Below, piece after piece: positions 2,098 through 12,223 of a stretch of DNA of 64,000 nt. A model generated the notes under the pieces. That model ran no database searches. It saw nothing but the letters and a program-made list of their open reading frames with translations, and was not told the DNA's origin. The stretch's first letter is position 1. Each line of letters begins with the position of its first letter. Source of the DNA: Patescibacteria group bacterium (GTDB lineage Bacteria; Patescibacteriota; Minisyncoccia; Phycocordibacterales; JAKAEA01); the NCBI GenBank assembly GCA_040387855.1, contig JAZKCY010000001.1:718922-782921 (forward strand), written 5' to 3'. The position numbers were made by a program, and so were the translations under genes.

Positions 2098-3597
2098 ATG
2101 GCAGAAAAAACAACTCTCATTGAACGTCCTCCGGTAATTGCCATCATGGGCCATGTTGACCACGGGAAATCAACGTTGCTCGACTATATCCGAAAGACTA
2201 ATATTGTAGAAGGTGAAGCGGGTGGAATTACCCAGCGTATTTCTGCATATGAAGTAATGCACAAAGGTGCAGATGGTAAAGAGCATGCTATTACATTTCT
2301 TGATACTCCTGGTCACGAAGCGTTCACCGCTATTCGATCACGAGGCGCAAAAGTAGCAGACATTGCTATTCTTGTTGTGTCTGCTGAAGACGGAGTGAAG
2401 CCTCAAACTATTGAAGCTCACAAAATTATCGTTGCTGCAGGAATCCCATTTATTGTTGCTATTAATAAGATTGATAAAGAAGGTGCAGACATTGATAAAA
2501 CTAAAGTAAGTCTTGCTGAAGCAGGAGTATACGTAGAAGGATTTGGTGGAGATATTTCTTTTGTACCTATTTCTGCAAAGACTGGTCAGGGCGTTTCTGA
2601 TCTTTTGGATATGGTACTTCTCCAAGCTGAACTTGAGGCTCTTCAGGGTGATCGATCTGTTCCTGCTGAAGGAATTATTATCGAAGCAAACCTTGATAAG
2701 CGAAAAGGAATCTCAGCTACAATCATAATCAAGAACGGAACACTCAAGACCGGACAGTTTGTCCTTGCTGATACTGCTATTGTTCCTGTACGAATGGTAG
2801 AAAACTTTTTGGGTAAGCCTATAAAAGAAGCAACCTTCTCAAATCCCATTCGACTCATTGGATGGAGTGAACTTCCAAAAGTTGGAACCTCAATCTTTTC
2901 TGTGAGTTCAAAGAAAGAAGCAGATCAACTTATTCTTGATCGAAAAAATGGTAAAGCTCCATTAAAGAACACTCCTGTTAAAGAAACAGATGAAGCAGTT
3001 ATCCCTATTGTACTCAAGGCTAATGAAGCTGGAGGTCTTGAAGCTCTTGAACATGAAATCAAAAAAGTAAAAAACGACCGGGTGCGAATTAAGATAATTT
3101 CTAGTGGGGTTGGAGATATTACAGAAAACGATGTGAAGCTTGCTAGTGGCCGTGAAAACACTATTGTTCTTGGATTTAATCTTAAAGTAGATGCACAAGC
3201 AAAGTCTTTAGCTGAGAAAACAGGAGTTGTTATTCAGACATTTGATATTATATACAAGCTTTCTGAATGGCTTGAAAATGCAATCAATGAACGAACTCCA
3301 CGAATGAATGTAGAAGAAGCTACAGGAACTGCAAAAGTTATTCGTCTTTTTAGTAAGACTAAGGATAAACAGGTGCTTGGAGGTAAAGTAGAAAAAGGAG
3401 TAATTATGTTGAATGCCGAAGTTAAAATCTTACGACGTGATTTTGAAGTTGGCCGTGGACGAGTACGAGAACTTCAGCATCTTAAAAACAAAGCGACAGA
3501 AGTACCAGAAGGAAAAGAATTTGGCGCACTCGTTGAATCAAAGATTGAAATCGCTCCTGGCGATCGTCTTGAAGCATTTAATGTTGTTCAAAAATAA
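2098..3597 (+). CDS. infB: translation initiation factor IF-2 (short form without the N-terminal extension)
   Basis: G-domain motifs 'AIMGHVDHGKSTLLD', 'DTPGHEAF' and 'NKIDK' are present, and the C-terminal IF-2 domains are conserved. The length is 499 aa. Confidence 0.93.
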   Translation: MAEKTTLIERPPVIAIMGHVDHGKSTLLDYIRKTNIVEGEAGGITQRISAYEVMHKGADGKEHAITFLDTPGHEAFTAIRSRGAKVADIAILVVSAEDGVKPQTIEAHKIIVAAGIPFIVAINKIDKEGADIDKTKVSLAEAGVYVEGFGGDISFVPISAKTGQGVSDLLDMVLLQAELEALQGDRSVPAEGIIIEANLDKRKGISATIIIKNGTLKTGQFVLADTAIVPVRMVENFLGKPIKEATFSNPIRLIGWSELPKVGTSIFSVSSKKEADQLILDRKNGKAPLKNTPVKETDEAVIPIVLKANEAGGLEALEHEIKKVKNDRVRIKIISSGVGDITENDVKLASGRENTIVLGFNLKVDAQAKSLAEKTGVVIQTFDIIYKLSEWLENAINERTPRMNVEEATGTAKVIRLFSKTKDKQVLGGKVEKGVIMLNAEVKILRRDFEVGRGRVRELQHLKNKATEVPEGKEFGALVESKIEIAPGDRLEAFNVVQK

Positions 3598-3932: not shown

Positions 3933-4006
3933 GGTGTAGTGGCGAAGCTGGTTAACGCGGCAGTCTGCAAAACTGCTATGCGCCGGTTCGATCCCGGCCT
4001 ACACCT
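3933..4006 (+). tRNA. tRNA-Cys (anticodon GCA)
   Basis: Manual cloverleaf. Acceptor ggtgtag/ctacacc; anticodon stem gcagt/actgc with loop ctGCAaa; T-loop ttcgatc; U73 discriminator as expected for Cys. CCA is not encoded. Confidence 0.85.
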
Positions 4007-4021
4007 CCGTTAGTAAAATAT

Positions 4022-4103
4022 GCCCGAGTGGTGGAATTGGTATACACGCACGACTTAAAATCGTGTCTCGCAAGGGATGTGGGTTCGACTCCCACCTCGG
4101 GCA
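4022..4103 (+). tRNA. tRNA-Leu (anticodon TAA), type II with long variable arm
   Basis: Acceptor gcccgag/ctcgggc; anticodon stem cacga/tcgtg with loop ctTAAaa; long variable arm; T-arm gtggg-ttcgact-cccac. Confidence 0.85.
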
Positions 4104-4114
4104 CAGATAAAATC

Positions 4115-6511
4115 ATGACTTCATTAAAGAAGAAGCCAATTATTGCATTTGATGGAACATGTCCAATGTGTACTGTTGTAGTGGACACCATCGATTCTTC
4201 TTCTCAAGTTAAAAGTTTCGAAAAGCAAGATACGAATTCTGGTCCAGAAATCTTATATACAGATATATCTGGGAATACATATAGAGGATCACATGCTATT
4301 TTAAAAATACTTGCCCACTATCCTCGTTTTAAATGGGTTGCACAGATCGGCTCTCTTCCAATCATTAGAAATATTCTTTCTATTGGATATAAACTCGTTG
4401 CTCACAATAGACATTTCATCTTTGGTCCTACGAGCACTTTGTTTTGGGTAAAGAATAGCATTGCAGTTGCGACAATCATTGGCCTTTTAGGATCTATTTA
4501 CCTCTGGATTGGAGAGCGCACATTCCCCTACTTGCCTGTCGTTAAAAATACGTCATTATCGTACCCATTTGATGTACTCTTATTTATAATAATTTTGATA
4601 TCACTTTTGGTAAGTCTATTTAGCGCATACCCCAAAAAATATCTACTTATTAGCGGTGCTGGAATTATCATCTTTGCATTATTTGATCAGGCACGATGGC
4701 ATCCTTGGGTATATCAGTACGTATGGATGATTGGAATTCTTGCACTCTTTTCTTGGAAACATTCAGATACAGAAAATCACAATAGTATTATAAAAATATG
4801 CCAACTAATAATTGGTAGTATCTATATATGGAGTGGAATTCAAAAAATAAATCCAAGTTTTATTCTTGAAGTATTCCCGTGGCTAGTACAACCAATTACT
4901 CAATTTTTACCAAATAGCATTTATCCAGTTATTTTACTTTCATCGGTATTCACACCATTTATTGAACTTGGAATTGGTCTTGCATTACTTTCAAAGAAGT
5001 TTAGAAAAATCGGAATAATTGGAGCTATTAGCATGCATCTATTGATTCTTACAACTCTAGGTCCATTAGGACATGGTGTAAATGCTATTATCTGGCCCTG
5101 GAATATTGTAATGATTGTGCTTGTACTCATACTCTTTTCAAAAAGCACATATTCATTTAGAGATATTTTACTTCCAAAAAAAGGTGTAGCTCACAAAGTG
5201 TCGCTTGTAACATTCTTAATAATTCCTTTCTTTAGCTTTATTGGTATTTGGGATTCATATCTTTCATTTGCCTTATACTCAGGCAATGCACCTCAGGCAC
5301 ATTTATATGTTTCGGATGCTGTAAAACCATTATTGCCATCGATTATTCAGGCAAATACAGTTGCACTTGAAAAAAATGGAATGAACGAGATAAGCATCTA
5401 CAAATGGTCTATGCAAGAACTCAATGTTCCTCAGTATCCTGAAGAGCGAATATATAGGAATGTAGCAAAGTATGTATGTTTGTTTGCCACAAAACCTTCA
5501 GATGTTCAGCTTTCTCTTGTAAGTAAGCGTAATATTTTTACTGGAGAGCGTACTACTAAAGAAATCGAATGTAGTTCAATGTTTGTTACTCCTCTTTCTT
5601 CAAATGAATATATTGATTTTAAAAACAAGCTACTAGGTATTTTAGCTACATCCTCACCTCGTGAAGCTATGTCTACATTGTTACTTGATTCAAAGACAAA
5701 TCCCGAAATTGCGCGAAGCTGTCATTCATTTGCACATGCTATTGGTCATGGAGCATACCTAAAATATAAAGATTTTTCTGAAGCATTAGTCTATCTCAAT
5801 GAAGCATGTAATTCTGGCTATATTCATGGAGTTATAGAAGAATATTTTATTCAAACCGAAGATGATGATGCCGGAATAGAAGGGATTAAAAAAGTCTGTG
5901 GATCATATCCTCAAGGTACGTTTAAAAGCTGGCAATGCTATCACGGCACAGGTCATGGCTTTATGTTTTATACAGAAAACGATTTACCTAAATCGTTAGA
6001 ATTTTGTTCTACGTTTAGTTCAAACTTTGCAGAAGAAAACTGTATGAATGGAGTACTTATGGAAAACTTTAATACAACAGATAAAATGCATCCTTCTCTC
6101 TTTATTAAACCTGATAGCTATTATCCATGTGATACATCTCTCATAGCTGATGGCATAAAAGATGATTGTTATGCGTATGCACCTTCATGGTTCCTATCTC
6201 AACATCCTAATGATTATTCTTTAGCATTACAGTGGTGTCAGACTGTAGATACTAAATATCGCGGCTCTTGTTATTTTGGTGTTGGAAATCAAGCTGCAAA
6301 AGATCTCGTTAATAATCCAAAAGAAGTAGAGAATATTTGTAATGGTGCGCCTATTCTCTACAAACAATCATGTATTATAGGAATGTCACAAATGCAGGTG
6401 CTTTACCATGCATCTCCCACAACAGCGCGTGAAGTGTGTTCTATACTCGAGATAAAAAACCAAAACTATTGTTATAAAACAGTTGAAAGCACTGAGTACT
6501 TATTTAAATAA
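4115..6511 (+). CDS. multidomain membrane protein: N-terminal DCC-family thiol-disulfide oxidoreductase (DUF393), HTTM-like polytopic membrane domain, and C-terminal Cys/His-rich ~45-aa repeats
   Basis: The track ORF starts at 4028 inside tRNA-Leu, so I moved the start to the ATG at 4115 (MTSLKKKPIIAFDGTCPMC...). The DCC signature is 'FDGTCPMC'. About 8-9 TM helices follow, and then about 6 repeats of the form x2-C-x3-G-x-G-(H), for example 'SCHSFAHAIGHGAY', 'QCYHGTGHGFMF' and 'SCYFGVGNQAA'. Confidence 0.75.
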   Translation: MTSLKKKPIIAFDGTCPMCTVVVDTIDSSSQVKSFEKQDTNSGPEILYTDISGNTYRGSHAILKILAHYPRFKWVAQIGSLPIIRNILSIGYKLVAHNRHFIFGPTSTLFWVKNSIAVATIIGLLGSIYLWIGERTFPYLPVVKNTSLSYPFDVLLFIIILISLLVSLFSAYPKKYLLISGAGIIIFALFDQARWHPWVYQYVWMIGILALFSWKHSDTENHNSIIKICQLIIGSIYIWSGIQKINPSFILEVFPWLVQPITQFLPNSIYPVILLSSVFTPFIELGIGLALLSKKFRKIGIIGAISMHLLILTTLGPLGHGVNAIIWPWNIVMIVLVLILFSKSTYSFRDILLPKKGVAHKVSLVTFLIIPFFSFIGIWDSYLSFALYSGNAPQAHLYVSDAVKPLLPSIIQANTVALEKNGMNEISIYKWSMQELNVPQYPEERIYRNVAKYVCLFATKPSDVQLSLVSKRNIFTGERTTKEIECSSMFVTPLSSNEYIDFKNKLLGILATSSPREAMSTLLLDSKTNPEIARSCHSFAHAIGHGAYLKYKDFSEALVYLNEACNSGYIHGVIEEYFIQTEDDDAGIEGIKKVCGSYPQGTFKSWQCYHGTGHGFMFYTENDLPKSLEFCSTFSSNFAEENCMNGVLMENFNTTDKMHPSLFIKPDSYYPCDTSLIADGIKDDCYAYAPSWFLSQHPNDYSLALQWCQTVDTKYRGSCYFGVGNQAAKDLVNNPKEVENICNGAPILYKQSCIIGMSQMQVLYHASPTTAREVCSILEIKNQNYCYKTVESTEYLFK

Positions 6512-7546
6512 AATATAGTTATATATATTTTTTATATCTTGCTTGAGCTCATCTGCAATATACAGATAATTATAAGGTTTAATTCTCTCTTCATATCTAA
6601 GTAATTTCTGCACAATATAAACTGTCGCAACTCCTAATACGAGCCCAGCAATAATATCGATGCCATAGTGTTGAATCGTAAATAGTGTCCCTAGCATATT
6701 TAAGATAAACCAAGGCACTAGAATATATCCTGAAGGCCTCCAAAGGCTCATAGCTGCATATAAAACGAGTATTGCCCATACAATGTGCATGCTTGGATTT
6801 GTGCTTACACTTAGCAATTTTCCAGCTGGATCAATCCAAAAACTGTCTATCTTGTCTATTTCTTGTGTGAGGTTCTCTGACAGCTTCATATTTTCTACTG
6901 AAGCCTGAATGTCAGAACTTATTGGCGCATTCAAAATATTTAATCTATACATTTCACTTGGAGCGATAGATGGCCATAATGCCCAGCATGCATACCCAAG
7001 TACATGTGAAATAAAAATACTTAAGATAAGTATTCTAAATACTTTCTTATTCATGCAGAATGCAAATACAAGAACTCCTAAGAGCAACAAAAATGCAGCA
7101 TGATATGAATACACTATAAGCATCTCTAAGAATACTGGATATGATATAGAGTGAATAAAAAAAGCTGGGTATACTCCAAATATCTTTTTATCAAGCATCA
7201 TGTACCAGTTACTTATTTCTGTAACTCTTTCAACAGATTGATGAGCAAATAAATAAAGAGTTGATAGTGCTAAAGTCACTAGTTCTAAAGACACAATACC
7301 TACAAGAACGATGCCACTCACAACTAGCTTCACAACAACATTATAAGAATGTTTATGCGCCACAAGCCATAAAGATTTTAAAACTACATAGCAGGCAATA
7401 CTCGCAATAAATACAGAGAGTAATACAATGAGATCGCCCGACAACGGTACCGTGTTTTTTGATCCATCAAAAAATATAAACAGTAAGAAAAGAACTGCGG
7501 GCACAACAATACAGTATAGTTCTAAGGGAAACTTACGTAACCACAT
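6500..7546 (-). CDS. PAP2-superfamily integral membrane protein (phosphatidic-acid-phosphatase / sphingolipid-phosphotransferase-like)
   Basis: The 348-aa polytopic product carries the PAP2 C2 and C3 motifs 'PSMH' and 'HYGIDIIAG'. Its 3' end overlaps the convergent upstream gene by 12 nt. Confidence 0.55.
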   Translation of the reverse strand: MWLRKFPLELYCIVVPAVLFLLFIFFDGSKNTVPLSGDLIVLLSVFIASIACYVVLKSLWLVAHKHSYNVVVKLVVSGIVLVGIVSLELVTLALSTLYLFAHQSVERVTEISNWYMMLDKKIFGVYPAFFIHSISYPVFLEMLIVYSYHAAFLLLLGVLVFAFCMNKKVFRILILSIFISHVLGYACWALWPSIAPSEMYRLNILNAPISSDIQASVENMKLSENLTQEIDKIDSFWIDPAGKLLSVSTNPSMHIVWAILVLYAAMSLWRPSGYILVPWFILNMLGTLFTIQHYGIDIIAGLVLGVATVYIVQKLLRYEERIKPYNYLYIADELKQDIKNIYNYILFK

Positions 7547-7616
7547 ATAGAGATTAGTATACCTGAACTTTAGCGAATATGGATTTTTTCACCATAATAT
7601 GTTATAAATTTTCTAC

Positions 7617-7689
7617 CCGCCCATAGCTCAGTTGGTAGAGCAGTCGCCTCTTAAGCGAATGGTCGTAGGTTCGACTCCTACTGGGCGGA
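7617..7689 (+). tRNA. tRNA-Lys (anticodon CTT)
   Basis: Acceptor ccgccca/tgggcgg (C1-G72); D-arm gctc-agttggtag-gagc; anticodon loop ctCTTaa; T-arm gtagg-ttcgact-cctac; discriminator A. The body is near-identical to canonical bacterial tRNA-Lys. Confidence 0.8.
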
Positions 7690-7693
7690 CAAT

Positions 7694-7735
7694 ACAACAA
7701 CCGTACACATATGTGTACGGTTGTTTGTTTCTTAT
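7694..7735. terminator. bidirectional rho-independent terminator
   Basis: A perfect palindrome 'acaaccgtacacatatgtgtacggttgt' is followed by tgtttgtttctt. It lies between tRNA-Lys on the + strand and the 3' end of the convergent 7735..10671 gene. Confidence 0.7.
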
Positions 7736-10671
7736 TAAATACCCATCATTGTTTTAGTTTGGCTGATAGCCGATGCAGCAGTATACGATGGCATCCAGTT
7801 GTCTTTTGACTGTTTTCGAGCTTCTCTAATAAAGGTGTCAAAATTTGGTTTTGTAGTCTGTGTAGCCGATGGACTTGTAGTATTTTGAAGCACTGTAAAT
7901 ACAGAACTCTGCGGTACAAGACCGTCAATTTTATTATTTCTTATGACAATATTACTTGAAGATGTTCGCCACGGGGCGGTGTTACTTGGTCGTACTCTAT
8001 ACAATTCAAATGCAACAGGCCACTTGTAAAATGTATTATTTTCTATGGTTATGTTATGAAATCCCACAGCATCATTTTGATAGGCACCATCTCCTGGCTC
8101 GAAACGAATAGCTCCATAAATTGGAGTTGTAGATTCATTGTAGGCAATAATGTTATTTGAAATTTCAACGCTTCTAATATTTGCTAGTTCGATTCCAAAA
8201 CCTCGAGGACCAGCATTTGGGCCTGAATCTATTGAACGTGTTCCCAACATAACATTATTAATAATTTTTCCTGTAACTCCTTTTGGAAACGTTTGTCCAT
8301 CTCCACGAACAAGTCCAAATGTCATATTCATTGGATTATTGTAGTAAAAATTCCCCTCAACTATTCCTCCACCTCTCACTTGAGTTCCGTGACTCGATGC
8401 ATTTGCTACAATATTATTACGTATTACCACTCCCCAGTTCATTGCATGAATGTACATATTGTGATCATAAATGGTACTTCCTGAGCCATCCAATTTTCTT
8501 CCGTTATTATCAACAACGTTATCTTCAATGATAAGTCCATTTACACCATATGCATAAATTCCCTGCGGCTTACCTCCCGATTTGTAGTTATCAACTATCA
8601 CTGAACGGCGAATAGTTATATTAGTCATAACTGGTCTATCGTTGGGTGTGTACACAAGTGGCCCTGATGAAAACACAATGCCTTTATTATGTCTTTCAAT
8701 GTAACAATCTTCAATGAGAATATTTCCTCCGCCGTTTGATGTACCTTCAAGTCCAATACCATTACCATTATTATTTCCTTTGAAATGAATACCTACAACA
8801 GCAAAATTTCTTGTATTAAATTCAAAAAACAATCCAAAATCTGAAGAAGTTATAATTGGACGAGCACCTGAACCATATGAAGTGAGTACAAATTTATCTG
8901 AATTTGATCGTCCTGAAACAACTTTGCCGTTTACAGAATTTCTAACCATACCATTCCAAGTATCCCCTTTTTTTAATCTAATCTGATCTGGATATCCTAG
9001 TCGAACTTGAGAAAATGCTTTAGCTATTGTCTTAAGTGGACTATCAATAGTTCCACTGTTTGCATCATTTCCTTCTGAACTAGACACATGTATAACCTTT
9101 GAATCAAATTTAGGTGAAATATTTGTATACCCGGTTATATTCGGATCAACAGGTAATGATGCGTTGACAATAGTTTGTGCTGTAAGTGATGTTGTACCAC
9201 CATTACCTACACAATTAATTATAAATATTTTTGTGCCTGTTGTAGTGATATTTGATAAAACCACCTCTCCTGTCGCACTTTGATTTCCACTCCAATCACC
9301 TGAAGCAGAACATCCTGTTGCATTAGTTGAACTCCATTGGATTCGAATATTTCCACCACTCGTAATCACTGGTGTAGCGTTCAATGTAACTACAGGCTTC
9401 AGACTTACTACAGGTGGAGTTACTGGTGGAGTAGTTGAATCTGTAACTGTAAACGTAATAGTTGTAGGTGTTCCCGCAACAAGTACACCATTAATCTGCT
9501 TATATGGAGTTGCAACCACGCTATGTGCACCTACCGTAGGAGTCCAAGCATTTGGTCCTTGCGCACCATCTCCAGCAAAAAAGAATGGCGCTTGAGATTG
9601 GGTTTGAAAATTGGCATTGCCATCATATCCAAACTTGACCTGCACAACATCTGCGGCAACATTTGCTTTAATGTTTATATTTTTGGAAGTAAGCGCTCCA
9701 AGATTAATGGTATTTCCAGAATTAAGACTCGTAAAACCAGGAACAATAGTTGTTGAATTTGCATAATACAATGACAAGCTATCAATTTTTGCTGAAGCAA
9801 CTGGTGCAGCAACACTAAATCGAATAACTTTTGGAGTTCCTGAAATAAAAGTACTTCCTGCTTGTTTAAACGGAGTAATAGTCAATGTGTGATTACCCAC
9901 TGTTGGCGTCCATGCATTCAATTTGCCAACTCCGTAGTCCCCCGCAAATGAATATGGTGCTGTAGCTTGAGAGGAATAATTGTCTTTTGTATCATATCCA
10001 AATTGGATTTTTGCAATCATCTCATTAGCATTTGGTTCTGCTAAAATATTTAGATTTTTAGTACCAATCTTATCAAAATCAATCACAGCTCCATCTTGAA
10101 ATACGAAATTCGCAACTGGCTTTTGGGTATCAGTATTAATTAATACTACTGTAGATATTTGTGTGGGAGGGGCAACATCAATGACGGTAAACTGAACTGA
10201 CAATGCGCGTCCAATGGTTCCTGTCGCATTTGTTTTTGAATATGGAGTAGCCTTAATAGTATGAGTACCTGTCGTAGGAGTCCATGCCCCATAATCAGTA
10301 CCTGAATCTCCTGCAAAAGAATATGGTGCTGTTACTTCAGTTGAAAAATTTGTAGTACTATCGTATGCAAAACGAACACTACCCACCGTGGCAGGATTTG
10401 TCTTAGCAACTAAATTGAGATTACGAGTGGGTAATGTCGCTAAGTTGAGTGTAGTTCCATTAGTAAAATTTTCATATCCAGGAATCACTTGATTTGAATC
10501 TGCATTTATGAGACTAAATCCAGTCACTGATGTAGAAGTGGTAAGCTGGGCAACAATTTGATTTACTGCTGCTGTAAATGACATATTATTTGTCATCAAC
10601 GCTCTTACAAAGACAAAGCTACCAATAAAAACTGCGAGTAATGCAACCGAAAGTGAGATTTTTTTTATCAC
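7735..10671 (-). CDS. large secreted protein: signal peptide, three tandem ~110-aa Ig-like repeats, and a C-terminal right-handed parallel beta-helix (pectin-lyase-fold) domain
   Basis: The 978-aa product has a GTG start, a signal peptide 'MIKKISLSVALLAVFIGSFVFVRA', and three repeats each containing '...APYSFAGD.G...AWTPT.G.H...TPY/FK'. The C-terminal half is N/G-rich with beta-helix turn motifs such as 'NILIEDCYIERHNKGIVF' and 'NNVVDNNG'. Confidence 0.8.
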   Translation of the reverse strand: MIKKISLSVALLAVFIGSFVFVRALMTNNMSFTAAVNQIVAQLTTSTSVTGFSLINADSNQVIPGYENFTNGTTLNLATLPTRNLNLVAKTNPATVGSVRFAYDSTTNFSTEVTAPYSFAGDSGTDYGAWTPTTGTHTIKATPYSKTNATGTIGRALSVQFTVIDVAPPTQISTVVLINTDTQKPVANFVFQDGAVIDFDKIGTKNLNILAEPNANEMIAKIQFGYDTKDNYSSQATAPYSFAGDYGVGKLNAWTPTVGNHTLTITPFKQAGSTFISGTPKVIRFSVAAPVASAKIDSLSLYYANSTTIVPGFTSLNSGNTINLGALTSKNINIKANVAADVVQVKFGYDGNANFQTQSQAPFFFAGDGAQGPNAWTPTVGAHSVVATPYKQINGVLVAGTPTTITFTVTDSTTPPVTPPVVSLKPVVTLNATPVITSGGNIRIQWSSTNATGCSASGDWSGNQSATGEVVLSNITTTGTKIFIINCVGNGGTTSLTAQTIVNASLPVDPNITGYTNISPKFDSKVIHVSSSEGNDANSGTIDSPLKTIAKAFSQVRLGYPDQIRLKKGDTWNGMVRNSVNGKVVSGRSNSDKFVLTSYGSGARPIITSSDFGLFFEFNTRNFAVVGIHFKGNNNGNGIGLEGTSNGGGNILIEDCYIERHNKGIVFSSGPLVYTPNDRPVMTNITIRRSVIVDNYKSGGKPQGIYAYGVNGLIIEDNVVDNNGRKLDGSGSTIYDHNMYIHAMNWGVVIRNNIVANASSHGTQVRGGGIVEGNFYYNNPMNMTFGLVRGDGQTFPKGVTGKIINNVMLGTRSIDSGPNAGPRGFGIELANIRSVEISNNIIAYNESTTPIYGAIRFEPGDGAYQNDAVGFHNITIENNTFYKWPVAFELYRVRPSNTAPWRTSSSNIVIRNNKIDGLVPQSSVFTVLQNTTSPSATQTTKPNFDTFIREARKQSKDNWMPSYTAASAISQTKTMMGI
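9410..10500. repeat. three tandem ~330-bp intragenic repeats encoding Ig-like modules
   Basis: The protein-level repeat motif YSFAGD...AWTPTxGxH occurs three times, at about aa 60-420 of the 7735..10671 product. Confidence 0.6.
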
Positions 10672-10674
10672 TGA

Positions 10675-12087
10675 ATGCCCATTAATAAATTAGTAATCAA
10701 AATATACTCATGTATTATACTATATACATATAATATGAAGCTAACCTCAAACATATATAACAAAGTAATAAAATCTATAGTTGGTCTAGTTTTATTCCTA
10801 GCCTTTTTTATTGTCTGCGCCTACTCTTATGATCCTGATTTGGGTTGGCACATTAAATCAGGACAGTACATAGTTGAAAATGGAATACCAACATACGATA
10901 TTTTCTCATATAGCGCATCAAGCTTTGAATGGATTAATCACGAATGGCTGTATAGTGTTTTAATTTCACAACTTCATGCTCTTGGAGGAGAACTTTTACT
11001 TTCACTAGTAATAGCCGGATTGTGGACTGCTGGAATACTACTTGCTAGTAGAAAATATGAGCCTTTAATCCTCATAGCAGCTGGTATCTCTATTATTTCA
11101 TTTGCAGGTATTAGACCTTCAGTATTTGCTCTTTTGTTTTTTGTACTTTTAGAAAGAATCTTAGAAAAGATATCTACCCAAACAAATAAACTACCTTTTT
11201 TAATTTCATTAATCCTGCTGTTTTTAGTTTGGGCAAATATTCATGCAAGCTTTCCCTTAGGCTTTGTTGTTCTTATTATTTTTGCTTGTTCTCACAAAAA
11301 GACTATTCCTTGGTATATATATGCTACATGTATTCTCGCATCATTTGTAAATCCATATGGGCCTCACATATATGTAGAAATTTTTAGAACTCTTACAAGT
11401 AATGATTTGCGTGCCTATGTATCAGAATGGCAAGGGTATATCATCCCCATCACCTATTTCTTTACGATATTGCCGTTACTTTTAATGTATGTTTTTGGGA
11501 AAAAGAAAGCGATCTTCGATCGTAAATACCTGTTCTCTTGTATTTTATTCTGCGCAAGTATTGTAAGCACACGTTTTTTCTTATTCTTTACAGCATACAG
11601 CCTCAGATACTTGGAAGATTATTTTATAAAATTCCGTTCGTACATTAGATCCAAAGTATCAAATGTAAGTTTTGTATATACTTATGTACTAATAGGATGC
11701 AGTATCTTTTTTGTTGGTCTCACAGAACGAGTCTCTCACGGGCAGTATTATCCAGTTCAGGCTGTGGCATATCTTCAACAAAATGCCTGTCCTGGCAATC
11801 TTTTTAATTTTTATGATTATGGAGGATATCTTATTTGGAAATTGCCTTCACATAAAGTATTTATCGATGGACGAATGCCCACATGGCGAACAGATACAGA
11901 AAATTATATGGCAGATTATGTGCGCGCAATACATGATACCGAATTTAGAAAAACTCTTTTTGATACCCATACTATTAAGTGTGTTTTATTTCCCCACACA
12001 GCAACAAATCTAATCAGCGATTTAAAAACACAAGGTTGGAATGTTTTAATTGCTGATTCTACGAGTATTCTCTTGATTCAACAATAA
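10675..12087 (+). CDS. polytopic membrane protein, probable GT-C-fold glycosyltransferase
   Basis: The 470-aa product has 10 or more TM helices. The first extracytoplasmic loop carries 'YDPDLGWHIKSG...DIFSYS...WINHEWL', an acidic DxD-like motif in loop 1 that is typical of ArnT/PMT-like GT-C enzymes. The true start may be the internal Met at 10735. Confidence 0.5.
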   Translation: MPINKLVIKIYSCIILYTYNMKLTSNIYNKVIKSIVGLVLFLAFFIVCAYSYDPDLGWHIKSGQYIVENGIPTYDIFSYSASSFEWINHEWLYSVLISQLHALGGELLLSLVIAGLWTAGILLASRKYEPLILIAAGISIISFAGIRPSVFALLFFVLLERILEKISTQTNKLPFLISLILLFLVWANIHASFPLGFVVLIIFACSHKKTIPWYIYATCILASFVNPYGPHIYVEIFRTLTSNDLRAYVSEWQGYIIPITYFFTILPLLLMYVFGKKKAIFDRKYLFSCILFCASIVSTRFFLFFTAYSLRYLEDYFIKFRSYIRSKVSNVSFVYTYVLIGCSIFFVGLTERVSHGQYYPVQAVAYLQQNACPGNLFNFYDYGGYLIWKLPSHKVFIDGRMPTWRTDTENYMADYVRAIHDTEFRKTLFDTHTIKCVLFPHTATNLISDLKTQGWNVLIADSTSILLIQQ

Positions 12088-12128
12088 ATGTTGAGAAACA
12101 AACTTAAGTATAGTAGTATAGACGGACT

Positions 12129-12210
12129 GGGCGAGTGGCGGAATTGGTATACGCGCTAGTCTTAGGAACTAGTTCCTCACGGATTGGGAGTTCGAGTCTC
12201 CCCTCGCCCA
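12129..12210 (+). tRNA. tRNA-Leu (anticodon TAG), type II
   Basis: Acceptor gggcgag/ctcgccc; anticodon stem ctagt/actag with loop ctTAGga; long variable arm; T-arm gggag-ttcgagt-ctccc; discriminator A. Confidence 0.85.
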
Positions 12211-12223
12211 CAGTCAAGCAAAG

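What the first reader, a model, noticed from the sequence alone, without database searches (positions are those of the whole stretch)
4115..6511. Unusual three-part fusion: DCC thiol-disulfide oxidoreductase, HTTM-like multi-pass membrane domain, and a C-terminal array of Cys/His-rich ~45-aa repeats
DCC (DUF393, 'FDGTCPMC') and HTTM-type membrane domains are usually separate neighbouring genes. Here they are fused, and the protein continues for about 330 aa with about 6 repeats of a C-x3-G-x-G-H-like unit (SCHSFAHAIGHGAY; QCYHGTGHGFMF; NCMNGVLMENF; DCYAYAPSWF; SCYFGVGNQAAK; SCIIGMSQMQVLYH). Those repeats look like a metal- or redox-centre binding array on the extracytoplasmic side. This could be a membrane-bound oxidative-folding or vitamin-K-epoxide-reductase-like disulfide relay with its own substrate or metal-binding domain, an arrangement I do not recognise from characterised systems. 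The annotated ORF start at 4028 falsely overlaps tRNA-Leu; the start at 4115 is better supported.
Basis: partly seen in the sequence, partly recalled or inferred. Interest (0 to 1): 0.55.

Follow-up and report, generated by a model that had tools for sequence, protein, structure and literature searches.

The report
One-off fusion: GGCX-like membrane enzyme plus solenoid
A candidate-phyla bacterium has welded a common thiol-redox/vitamin-K-carboxylase-like membrane protein onto an exported, disulfide-stapled, histidine-rich helical domain that belongs to a large family nobody has described; the join is probably real, but it has been seen in only one genome.

Summary
The 798-aa ORF (4115-6511, +) is real and the ATG at 4115 is the right start. 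Part 1 is a true DCC1-like CxxC domain. Part 2 is a 9-helix membrane domain of the DoxX/MauE/HTTM clan. Its only structural relatives in the PDB are human vitamin-K gamma-carboxylase (GGCX) structures, and it keeps the catalytic Lys/acid pair (K244/E284). The DCC + membrane fusion is not unusual: about 40 protein clusters of ~500 aa share it. Part 3 (aa 490-798) is not a loose array of ~45-aa metal motifs. It is one autonomous exported domain, an eight-repeat all-alpha solenoid. It has 14 near-invariant Cys (probably 7 disulfide staples) and a near-invariant His5/Glu2/Met2 cluster on repeats 1-4. This family is large (1,186 representatives at E<=1e-30) and has no Pfam, NCBIfam or PDB match. 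Relatives carry their own signal anchor or a His-rich cupredoxin-like domain. The three-part fusion is a singleton, and 160 loci of either family show no linkage between them. Synteny shows the solenoid gene is ancestral at this tRNA-Leu slot and that the DCC-GGCX-like module replaced its 5' end. My best reading is a real anchor and redox-partner swap. The mechanism is inferred only.

The parts
4022..4104 (+). tRNA-Leu(taa). It defines the true 5' limit of the gene and marks the conserved slot where relatives carry the solenoid gene.
   Evidence: ARAGORN. The same tRNA sits directly upstream of the solenoid gene in L080 and L168.
4115..6511 (+). The whole 798-aa fusion ORF, stop codon included.
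   Evidence: Identical to P0001 / MES2437165.1.
4115..4429 (+). DCC1-like thioredoxin-fold domain (aa 1-105), predicted cytoplasmic. The CPMC motif is at 4160-4171.
   Evidence: PF04134 over aa 10-104, E 7.6e-11. The model shows a beta-alpha-beta-beta-beta-alpha pattern.
4433..5239 (+). Nine-helix membrane domain (aa 107-375) of the DoxX/MauE/HTTM clan with a GGCX-like fold. K244 is at 4844-4846 and E284 at 4964-4966.
   Evidence: AF2 model with pLDDT 91.7. Foldseek top 16 hits are all GGCX. K244 aligns with GGCX K218 and E284 with D263. MauE hits 20/24 relatives, DoxX 12/24, HTTM 1/24.
5240..5581 (+). Linker (WDSYLS motif) plus a small beta-rich domain (aa 376-489), predicted extracytoplasmic. 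It carries the near-invariant pair C455 (5477-5479) and C486 (5570-5572). The ~500-aa family ends here.
5573..5596 (+). Fusion junction, ...C|SSMFVTP|LSSNEY.... Homology to the first family ends and homology to the second begins within about 4 residues, leaving no room for a hidden anchor or stop codon.
   Evidence: Alignments. GC content is flat across the junction.
5582..6508 (+). Exported Cys-stapled all-alpha solenoid domain (aa 490-798): 8 long helices and 14 conserved Cys.
   Evidence: AF2 model with pLDDT 94.1 and pTM 0.91. 68 close homologues and 6,844 representatives. No Pfam, NCBIfam or PDB match.
5723..6064 (+). Conserved His/Glu/Met cluster on solenoid repeats 1-4: H537, H541, H571, E575, H610, H614, M617, M649, E650. 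Predicted metal or redox site.
   Evidence: Each residue is conserved in 197-208 of 208 domain copies.

Best explanation
This is a genuine, lineage-specific gene fusion of two independent protein families.

Shown:
- Residues 1-489 belong to a widespread ~500-aa family. It consists of a cytoplasmic DCC1-like CxxC domain, a nine-helix membrane domain, and a small outside beta-domain with one Cys pair.
- The membrane domain's closest solved relatives are human vitamin-K gamma-carboxylase structures. It keeps the Lys/acid pair (K244/E284) that deprotonates the quinol in that enzyme.
- Residues 490-798 are an autonomous exported domain. Elsewhere it carries its own signal anchor or follows a His-rich cupredoxin-like domain.
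- That domain is an eight-repeat alpha-solenoid with 14 conserved Cys and a near-invariant His5/Glu2/Met2 cluster.
- In relatives, the solenoid gene sits in the same tRNA-Leu(taa)/tRNA-Lys(ctt) slot.

Inferred:
- The DCC-GGCX-like gene landed between the tRNA and the solenoid gene and replaced the solenoid's export/anchor segment. The membrane protein's outward-facing C-terminus now tethers the solenoid outside the cell, next to the outward-facing quinone site.
- The Cys form 7 disulfide staples, and the His cluster binds metal (copper is the best guess).
- The fusion replaces the usual anchor or cupredoxin partner with another redox module. Reducing equivalents could then pass from cytoplasmic thiols, through the DCC CxxC and a membrane quinone, to the outside metal centre, or the reverse.
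For: ORF and start codon:
-.

DCC domain:
- Pfam hit. The D-x2-C-x2-C motif is present in the alignment of relatives that carry the domain.

Membrane domain:
- The AF2 model has pLDDT 91.7 and 9 TM helices.
- Foldseek hits 1-16 are all GGCX, best E 6.7e-7, probability 1.0, TM-score 0.46.
- GGCX is also the only PDB match to the family profile. That alignment pairs K244 with K218 and E284 with D263.
- GGCX is described as TM1-9 plus a luminal domain, with K218 as the catalytic base and D263 as its partner (PMC12589487, PMC13486548).

Topology:
- K/R density is 7 in 32 residues for inside loops (plus 5 at helix ends) against 4 in 85 for outside loops.

Solenoid family:
-.
- 141 of 150 standalone relatives have an N-terminal hydrophobic anchor.
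- Twelve Cys are 100% conserved, and C47/C76 are lost together in 20 of 22 cases.
- The His cluster residues are 95-100% conserved.

Redox partner in relatives:
- About 20 of 80 genome loci, and many clusters, carry a cupredoxin-like N-terminal partner.

Synteny:
- CysDes-DUF4446-IF2-RbfA and the tRNA array Cys-Leu(taa)-Lys(ctt)-Leu(tag) are shared with relatives. In L080 the solenoid gene sits between Leu(taa) and Lys(ctt), and in L168 directly after Leu(taa), as in the window.

Thiol-redox hint:
- A glutaredoxin gene lies next to the nearest N-terminal relative.
Against: - The three-part architecture exists in one gene on one contig of one MAG.
- The two families never lie within 8 kb of each other in 80 + 80 other loci, and neither has conserved neighbours. 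There is therefore no independent support for functional coupling.
- Most solenoid proteins stand alone, so the domain does not need a fused redox partner.
- Metal binding, disulfides and any quinone are not shown. I could not inspect model coordinates.
- From general knowledge, Patescibacteria usually lack quinone biosynthesis and respiration, which argues against vitamin-K-type chemistry.
- The DCC CxxC would sit on the opposite membrane face from the K244/E284 site.
- The GGCX sequence alignment is marginal (E 0.065).
Confidence: 0.5

Rival explanations
1. Anchor swap only. The fusion is real but functionally neutral. The nine-helix protein simply replaces the solenoid's lost signal anchor, and the two halves keep unrelated jobs.
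For: - The families show no linkage in 160 loci.
- The fusion is unique among 94 relatives of the N-terminal family and among the 150 best solenoid representatives listed.
- Most solenoids stand alone.
- The tRNA array looks like an insertion hotspot.
Against: - The solenoid's only recurrent N-terminal partner is another redox-type domain, the cupredoxin-like one.
- The junction is exact and places the solenoid beside the outward-facing active-site region of a GGCX-like enzyme.
Confidence: 0.3
2. One reading: an oxidative-folding or VKOR-like disulfide relay. The membrane domain and DCC make disulfides, and the Cys/His repeats act as a built-in substrate or an array of redox/metal sites.
For: - The CxxC domain is real.
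- The MauE family is weakly hit by 20/24 relatives. From my own knowledge, not checked here, MauE is linked to maturation of a six-disulfide protein.
- The fused domain probably needs 7 disulfides.
Against: - The membrane domain has no conserved Cys, so a thiol relay across the membrane is not possible in the DsbB, VKOR or DsbD manner.
- The DCC domain is predicted to be cytoplasmic.
- Hundreds of standalone solenoids have no such gene nearby.
- The fold matches GGCX, not VKOR.
Confidence: 0.08
3. Tethered substrate. The GGCX-like module post-translationally modifies the solenoid, for example by carboxylating or otherwise modifying conserved Glu575/Glu650.
For: - The catalytic Lys/acid pair is conserved.
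- GGCX acts on luminal Glu-rich, disulfide-containing domains held by its luminal domain.
- Glu residues in the solenoid are invariant.
Against: - The GGCX Glu-pocket residues N158/N159/H160 align with Q/P/W in this family.
- The two families do not co-localise.
- Fusing an enzyme to its own substrate would limit the enzyme to a single turnover.
Confidence: 0.05
4. Artefact or recent pseudo-fusion. An assembly collapse or a fresh deletion joined two adjacent genes.
For: - There is only one assembly, and no second contig carries this protein.
Against: - The join is in frame and exactly at both domain boundaries, and every invariant residue of both families is intact.
- GC content is flat across the junction.
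- Both flanks lie within one conserved tRNA/IF-2 synteny block, so there is no contig-level chimera.
- No relative has the two genes adjacent, so there was nothing next to each other to collapse.
Confidence: 0.07

Closest known systems
DCC1-like + DoxX/MauE/HTTM-type membrane proteins of ~500 aa, annotated 'DCC family thiol-disulfide oxidoreductase YuxK / YphA (DoxX/SURF4)'
   Same: Residues 1-489 align end to end at 34-48% identity with about 40 clusters and share all the invariant residues.
   Different: None of the 94 relatives found with the family profile extends beyond about 545 aa. Only the window protein carries the 309-aa solenoid.
[quoted passage not shown]
   Same: - Nine TM helices followed by a domain on the non-cytoplasmic side.
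- Best and only significant structural match.
- K218 and D263 correspond to K244 and E284, with Glu as in the viral epoxidases.
   Different: - About 11% sequence identity and a TM-score of only 0.46.
- The Glu-binding N158/N159/H160 residues are replaced by Q/P/W.
- The outside domain is about 100 aa, against about 350 aa in GGCX.
- A DCC domain is added at the N-terminus.
- The host lineage is not known to make quinones.
HTTM-DCC1 fusion protein of Melghirimyces with its DUF5819 partner (bioRxiv 10.64898/2026.08.19.745780)
   Same: The same two domain types are in one polypeptide, and the predicted complex resembles whole GGCX.
   Different: - The domain order is reversed (HTTM first, then DCC).
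- The outside partner is a separate DUF5819 protein, not a Cys-stapled solenoid.
Mycobacterium tuberculosis membrane-associated oxidoreductase complex (DoxX + SseA + SodA)
   Same: The parts list is the same: a thiol oxidoreductase, a DoxX-clan integral membrane protein and a metalloprotein (summarised in PMC6930017).
   Different: - It consists of three separate proteins.
- The thiol enzyme (a rhodanese-type enzyme, from my own knowledge) and the metalloprotein (superoxide dismutase) are unrelated to those here.
- The resemblance is architectural only and was not tested.
Cupredoxin-like + solenoid proteins (for example P0052 and P0062 in Rubrobacteraceae, and L080, L078 and L073 in Patescibacteria)
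   Same: They carry the same solenoid domain (35-46% identity) with a redox-type domain fused at its N-terminus. L080 occupies the same tRNA slot as the window gene.
   Different: - The partner is a soluble exported His-rich cupredoxin-like domain (motifs HWPASDxHPxH and HDHLWxH, with Asp where plastocyanin has its Cys ligand).
- In the window protein the partner is a membrane enzyme instead.
Sel1-like/TPR cysteine-rich solenoids
   Same: All-alpha helical-hairpin repeats of about 35 aa with paired Cys.
   Different: - No Pfam Sel1 or TPR hit.
- Foldseek gives E >= 0.05 and TM-scores mostly 0.2-0.3 against TPR, ARM and Sel1 proteins.
- The Cys spacing and the His cluster are different.

Membership tests
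DCC1-like thiol-disulfide oxidoreductase (PF04134 / DUF393) | Match to the family HMM above the curated cut-off | tested here: met
   43.7 bits against a cut-off of 27.8, covering aa 10-104 and nearly the whole model, positions 1-112 of 113.
DCC1-like thiol-disulfide oxidoreductase (PF04134 / DUF393) | N-terminal D-x2-C-x2-C motif on a thioredoxin-like fold | tested here: met
   D13-G-T-C16-P-M-C19 is present. The motif is also present in the relatives that carry the domain. The model's secondary-structure order fits a thioredoxin-like fold.
HTTM domain (PF05090) | Match to the Pfam HTTM HMM | tested here: not met
   The window protein gives no HTTM hit at E <= 1. Only 1 of 24 relatives hits it, and precomputed HTTM hits exist for P0041, P0273 and P0278. 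The sequence-level placement is the DoxX/MauE/HTTM clan, not PF05090 itself.
Vitamin-K-dependent gamma-carboxylase (GGCX) fold | Nine-TM domain plus a non-cytoplasmic domain, superimposable on solved GGCX | tested here: met
   The Foldseek top 16 hits are all GGCX, E 6.7e-7 to 4.6e-2, probability 0.98-1.0, TM-score 0.30-0.47 normalised to the query. The model has 9 TM helices.
Vitamin-K-dependent gamma-carboxylase (GGCX) chemistry | Catalytic base K218 and its acidic partner D263 | tested here: met
   The profile alignment places invariant K244 on K218 and E284 on D263 (E284 is at least 90% conserved in the 24-sequence alignment). The alignment itself is marginal (E 0.065).
Vitamin-K-dependent gamma-carboxylase (GGCX) chemistry | Glu-binding pocket (N158, N159, H160) needed for carboxylation | tested here: not met
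   These residues align with Q196, P197 and W198 of the family. This resembles the epoxidase-only homologues.
Vitamin-K-dependent gamma-carboxylase (GGCX) chemistry | Use of a quinol cofactor and O2 | not testable with these tools
   This needs biochemistry. The rest of the genome, where quinone genes might lie, was not available.
MauE (PF07291) / DoxX (PF07681) | Match to the family HMM above the curated cut-off | tested here: not met
   MauE scores 22.7 bits against a cut-off of 27. Weak MauE hits occur in 20/24 relatives and weak DoxX hits in 12/24.
VKOR / DsbB / DsbD-type membrane thiol relay | Conserved Cys pairs or a CxxC within or beside the TM helices | tested here: not met
   The TM domain has a single, non-conserved Cys (C229). 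The only conserved Cys are C455 and C486 in the outside beta-domain.
Undescribed Cys-stapled His-cluster solenoid family (this work) | 14 conserved Cys plus the H-x3-H / H-x3-E / H-x3-H-x2-M / ME cluster over about 300 aa | tested here: met
   The window sequence keeps all 36 invariant columns. It scores E 3.8e-117 against the family profile.
Undescribed Cys-stapled His-cluster solenoid family (this work) | Export by its own N-terminal signal or anchor | tested here: not met
   The window copy has no anchor; the domain starts 4 residues after the end of the membrane protein. By contrast, 141 of 150 standalone relatives have one.
Sel1-like / TPR repeats | HMM or structural match | tested here: not met
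   No Pfam hit. Foldseek gives E >= 0.05 and TM-score <= 0.39. The profile search against PDB sequences gives E >= 0.24.

The most novel reading that the evidence does not exclude
The fusion would be a single-polypeptide trans-membrane redox conduit. Cytoplasmic thiols (the DCC CxxC, fed by glutaredoxin or thioredoxin) would reduce a membrane quinone held by the GGCX-like domain. That domain would in turn serve a new class of extracytoplasmic metalloprotein, the Cys-stapled His5/Glu2/Met2 solenoid, which is possibly a copper centre. The fusion and the cupredoxin fusions in relatives would then be the first functional clue to a family with more than 1,000 representatives that has no Pfam model and no solved structure.
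Probability: 0.15. Interest if true: 0.7.

Novelty: new variant of a known kind. Interest (0 to 1): 0.45.

Why it matters
- The fusion exposes a large exported domain family with no Pfam, NCBIfam or PDB counterpart. It has 6,844 representatives at E<=1e-3 and occurs mostly in Patescibacteria and Rubrobacteraceae. Copy number per protein ranges from 1 to 13. Its histidine cluster is as conserved as its structural cysteines.
- It shows that many Patescibacteria and soil bacteria encode GGCX-like membrane proteins that keep the catalytic Lys/acid pair and are fused to a DCC thiol domain. That raises the question of what a 'vitamin-K carboxylase' fold does in lineages thought to lack quinones.
- The singleton fusion and the recurrent cupredoxin fusions both point to redox or metal chemistry for the solenoid. 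This gives a concrete hypothesis that can be tested by expressing the domain and measuring its metal content.
- On its own, the fusion is a one-genome event. It should not be presented as a new system.

Tried and rejected
- Gene linkage as a Rosetta-stone test. A tblastn search with the N-terminal half against 80 genome loci around solenoid genes (+-8 kb) found nothing. The reverse search, solenoid against 80 metagenome loci of the N-terminal family, also found nothing.
- Conserved neighbourhoods. Clustering all neighbouring ORFs gave no neighbour in more than 11 of 80 loci for the solenoid or more than 4 of 82 for the N-terminal family. The recurrent neighbours (IF-2, DUF4446) reflect lineage synteny, not function.
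- A full-length structure from a merged alignment. MAFFT mis-aligned the two homologue sets (A3), so I predicted the two halves separately. As a result there is no model of how the halves pack against each other.
- Structural and sequence homologues of the solenoid. Foldseek against the PDB and against BFVD, phmmer and hmmsearch against PDB sequences, Pfam and NCBIfam returned only noise-level TPR, Sel1 or ARM hits.
- An HExxH protease reading of the consensus 'HEIGH'. I rejected it because the window has HAIGH and the Glu and second His positions vary.
- A LanC-like reading (seven GxxG repeats and a CHG motif, a lead from memory). I rejected it because no LanC structure appears among the Foldseek hits.
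- A second assembly of the fusion. None is on record.
- Paralogues of either half elsewhere in the 64-kb window. There are none.
- Literature. I found nothing linking Patescibacteria with HTTM or DCC proteins, and nothing describing the solenoid.
Full report
**1. What is in the sequence**

The + strand carries one uninterrupted ORF ending at 6511. ARAGORN places tRNA-Cys at 3933-4008 and tRNA-Leu(taa) at 4022-4104. The longest ORF start, GTG at 4028, therefore lies inside the tRNA gene. The first ATG after it, at 4115, is the credible start. It gives a 798-aa protein identical to NCBI's MES2437165.1, annotated 'DCC1-like thiol-disulfide oxidoreductase family protein [Patescibacteria group bacterium]', on a 981,549-bp contig. 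An 827-aa version of the same gene also exists in the collection. Homologues start at the position equivalent to 4115.

**2. The N-terminal 489 residues are an ordinary member of an existing fusion family**

- Pfam finds DCC1-like (PF04134) at aa 10-104 with 43.7 bits against a cut-off of 27.8. It also finds a sub-threshold MauE hit at aa 224-311. There is no HTTM hit, and NCBIfam finds nothing.
- A full-length search returned about 40 clusters of 480-545 aa. They cover only the first ~60% of the query at 34-48% identity, and nearly all carry PF04134.
- A profile search found 94 relatives, about 500 aa with the DCC domain or about 390 aa without it. Only the window protein is longer than 545 aa.
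The reverse order (HTTM then DCC) has been described in a Firmicute (bioRxiv 10.64898/2026.08.19.745780).
- Across 24 relatives, Pfam hits are DCC1 21, MauE 20, DoxX 12 and HTTM 1. This places the membrane part in the DoxX/MauE/HTTM clan.

**3. The membrane domain has a GGCX-like fold**

An AlphaFold2 model of aa 1-489, built from 42 sequences, has pLDDT 91.7 and pTM 0.90. It shows four parts:
- a beta-alpha-beta-beta-beta-alpha N-terminal domain;
- amphipathic helices;
- nine long hydrophobic helices between residues 107 and 375;
- a small beta-rich domain at 394-489.

Foldseek against the PDB gives human vitamin-K-dependent gamma-carboxylase as hits 1-16. The best is 9bvq, with E 6.7e-7, probability 1.0 and TM-score 0.46 over about 430-460 columns. 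Nothing else scores below E 0.4.

GGCX is also the only PDB protein found by the family's sequence profile, although marginally (E 0.065). That alignment gives three correspondences:
- Family 'YfwSGlqK' aligns with GGCX 'YFIAGVKK', so invariant K244 matches K218.
- Family 'PfiE' aligns with 'LLLD', so E284 matches D263.
- GGCX N158/N159/H160 align with Q196/P197/W198.

According to PMC12589487, GGCX consists of TM1-9 plus a luminal domain, K218 is the catalytic base, and N159/H160 hold the substrate Glu. According to PMC13486548, K218 works with D263, and viral epoxidase-only homologues keep the Lys and use Glu in place of Asp. The family therefore retains the quinol-activating pair but not the carboxylation pocket. 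The membrane domain contains no conserved Cys. The only conserved Cys outside the CxxC are C455 and C486 in the beta-domain. This rules out a thiol relay of the VKOR, DsbB or DsbD type.

**4. Topology**

With the DCC domain (no signal peptide) inside and nine helices, the C-terminus is outside. The K/R distribution agrees: 7 in 32 residues in the predicted inside loops, plus five more at the inside helix ends, against 4 in 85 in the outside loops. K244 then lies at the outer interface, as K218 does in GGCX.

**5. The C-terminal 309 residues are a separate, undescribed domain family**

- A search with aa 490-798 found 68 clusters at 34-50% identity over 55-100% of the query. Most are 330-360 aa. 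Some are 475-504 aa with an N-terminal cupredoxin-like domain (PF13473). None has a Pfam domain over the region itself.
- An exhaustive profile search found 6,844 cluster representatives at E<=1e-3 and 1,186 at E<=1e-30. Some are giants with up to 13 copies.
- Ten relatives gave no Pfam hit at all.
- One giant adds a GH3 glycosidase plus LRV/HEAT repeats. Another adds FG-GAP repeats.
- The genome scan assigns the family mainly to Patescibacteria (Saccharibacteria, Doudna-, Peri- and Paceibacteria and others) and Rubrobacteraceae.
- The AF2 model is confident (pLDDT 94.1, pTM 0.91) and all-alpha, with 17 helices: a three-helix cap followed by eight long helices alternating with short ones.
- Foldseek finds nothing better than E 0.05, with TM-score <= 0.39, in the PDB, and nothing in BFVD. 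The hits are only generic TPR, ARM or Sel1 solenoids. Sequence and profile searches of the PDB are empty.

**6. Conserved features of the solenoid**

In 30 sequences, 36 columns are invariant, including 14 Cys. I then examined 208 full-length domain copies:
- Twelve Cys are 100% conserved.
- The other two, C47 and C76 in domain numbering, are lost together in 20 of 22 cases. That is the signature of a bonded pair.
- The remaining Cys fall into pairs 11-13 residues apart: 106/119, 142/154, 183/196, 219/230, 253/264 and 286/297. Five of the six pairs run from the end of a short helix to the first turns of the next long helix; C183 lies in a loop.
- I infer seven disulfide staples. I could not measure distances because model coordinates are not exposed.

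Equally conserved residues, as counts out of 208 (protein numbering in brackets):

| Residue (domain numbering) | Protein numbering | Conserved copies |
|---|---|---|
| H48 | 537 | 205 |
| H52 | 541 | 208 |
| H82 | 571 | 208 |
| E86 | 575 | 199 |
| H121 | 610 | 207 |
| H125 | 614 | 207 |
| M128 | 617 | 204 |
| M160 | 649 | 206 |
| E161 | 650 | 197 |

These are three i/i+4 pairs on three consecutive long helices, plus a Met/Glu on the fourth. This is the pattern expected of a metal site, possibly binuclear, and not of one site per repeat.

The eight 'C-x2-G' helices are spaced 29-43 aa apart, with a mean of about 36. Of 150 standalone relatives, 141 have an N-terminal hydrophobic anchor, so the domain works outside the cell.

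**7. Is the three-part fusion real, and how did it arise?**

Homology to the ~500-aa family runs to C486 + 3 residues, and homology to the solenoid family starts at about residue 494. There is no room for a hidden stop codon, an intergenic remnant or an anchor in another frame. GC content is flat across the junction, and every invariant residue of both families is intact.

The flanks are syntenic with related Patescibacteria:
- The gene order cysteine desulfurase-DUF4446-IF-2-RbfA is shared.
- The tRNA array Cys-Leu(taa)-Lys(ctt)-Leu(tag) is contiguous in L025, L068 and L076.
- In L080 a solenoid gene, with a cupredoxin-like N-terminus, sits between tRNA-Leu(taa) and tRNA-Lys(ctt). In L168 one sits directly after tRNA-Leu(taa). 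The fusion gene occupies the same position in the window.

The solenoid gene is therefore ancestral at this spot, and the DCC-GGCX-like coding sequence is the newcomer. It replaced the solenoid's signal or anchor, or possibly a signal plus cupredoxin. A contig-level chimera is unlikely because both flanks belong to one conserved block. Only read-level data could exclude an in-frame assembly deletion, and no second assembly exists.

**8. Is there independent evidence that the two halves work together?**

No.
- None of 80 genome loci around solenoid genes contains a relative of the N-terminal half within 8 kb.
- None of 80 metagenome loci around N-terminal-family genes contains a solenoid.
- Neither family has conserved neighbours (examples).

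There are three hints:
- The solenoid's only recurrent N-terminal partner is a His-rich cupredoxin-like domain. It appears in about 20 of 80 genome loci, with motifs HWPASDxHPxH and HDHLWxH. Its weak best PDB matches are plastocyanins, with Asp at the position of the Cys ligand. That is another redox or metal module.
- One standalone member lies 2.5-6 kb from a copper-ATPase / HMA / DsbD-cupredoxin cluster.
- The closest N-terminal relative has a glutaredoxin gene 140 bp upstream on the same strand, and a second locus shows the same arrangement.

**9. Mechanism**

Shown: the domain identities, the fold, the conserved residues, the likely topology, and the evolutionary origin at the tRNA slot.

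Inferred, at moderate confidence: the nine-helix protein now tethers the solenoid outside the cell beside its outward-facing K244/E284 site, and the Cys are disulfide staples.

Inferred, at low confidence: the His/Glu/Met cluster binds metal, with copper favoured by the cupredoxin association and the His/Met ligand set. The fusion would then replace a cupredoxin or plain anchor with a quinone-handling, thiol-linked membrane module, forming an electron path from cytoplasmic thiols through the DCC CxxC and a quinone to the outside metal centre.

The nearest architectural analogue is the M. tuberculosis DoxX-SseA-SodA membrane oxidoreductase complex, which combines a thiol enzyme, a DoxX membrane protein and a metalloprotein (PMC6930017). 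The main objections are:
- the fusion is a singleton;
- the two families are not linked elsewhere;
- the CxxC and the K/E site lie on opposite membrane faces;
- by general knowledge, Patescibacteria usually lack quinones.

The chief rival is a functionally neutral anchor swap.

**10. Verdict**

The DCC + membrane pair is a new member of a known but uncharacterised kind. Adding the solenoid makes the protein a new variant, seen in one genome only. The more valuable by-products are two. One is the recognition of a large, unmodelled, exported Cys-stapled His-cluster solenoid family. The other is the finding of GGCX-like, Lys/Glu-retaining membrane proteins fused to DCC domains in Patescibacteria.

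Interest is 0.45. The most novel reading that the evidence does not exclude, a single-chain trans-membrane redox conduit feeding a new metalloprotein class, has a probability of about 0.15.

Noticed in passing
window 3933-12211: The tRNA array Cys-Leu(taa)-Lys(ctt)-Leu(tag) is contiguous (within about 550 bp) in the relatives L025, L068 and L076. In the window it is split by two gene-filled slots. The first holds the fusion gene and a PAP2 gene. The second holds a 978-aa protein and a 470-aa membrane protein. The array looks like a hotspot for gene insertion.
   Followed up: partly
window 7735-10671 (-): A 978-aa protein with an N-terminal hydrophobic segment and no Pfam hit. Its translation shows three internal repeats of about 115 aa (APYSFAGD...AWTPTxGxH...TPY), followed by a long Asn/Gly/Ile-rich region.
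   Followed up: no
window 10675-12087 (+); L017 1367-2992: A 470-aa polytopic membrane protein with no Pfam hit. A homologue (26% identity, E 8e-32) lies immediately downstream of a standalone solenoid gene in L017. This is a single case of possible linkage.
   Followed up: no
window 6500-7546 (-); L078 6415-7401: A PAP2_3-family membrane phosphatase gene overlaps the 3' end of the fusion gene tail-to-tail by 12 nt. A distant PAP2-like gene sits 9 nt upstream of the cupredoxin+solenoid gene in L078, on the same strand.
   Followed up: no
window 4028-4114; P0078, P0090 (L168 5995-6079): Gene callers repeatedly extend ORFs backwards through tRNA-Leu genes, producing spurious 'MVELV...DLKS...' N-termini. 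This happened in the window's 827-aa call (P0251) and in two standalone solenoid proteins.
   Followed up: yes
L169-L171 (P0002 locus), L108 9641-9880: A 78-aa glutaredoxin gene lies directly next to the DCC-GGCX-like gene in the closest relative (140 bp upstream, same strand) and in one other locus. It could be the thiol partner of the DCC CxxC.
   Followed up: partly
P0111 (3580 aa), P0236 (1677 aa): Giant proteins carry many copies of the solenoid domain: 13 copies in P0111, fused to a GH3 glycosidase and LRV/HEAT repeats, and 5 copies in P0236, fused to FG-GAP repeats. The domain is therefore also used as a tandem module in very large proteins that are probably on the cell surface.
   Followed up: partly
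L003 1-3510 (P0088 locus): A copper-type P-type ATPase (HMA domain), a cation-efflux protein, a DsbD_2-cupredoxin fusion and a small HMA protein lie 2.5-6 kb upstream of a standalone solenoid gene.
   Followed up: no
window 2098-3597 (+): Translation initiation factor IF-2 is a short 499-aa form that starts almost directly at the GTPase domain. The same short form occurs in the syntenic relatives.
   Followed up: no
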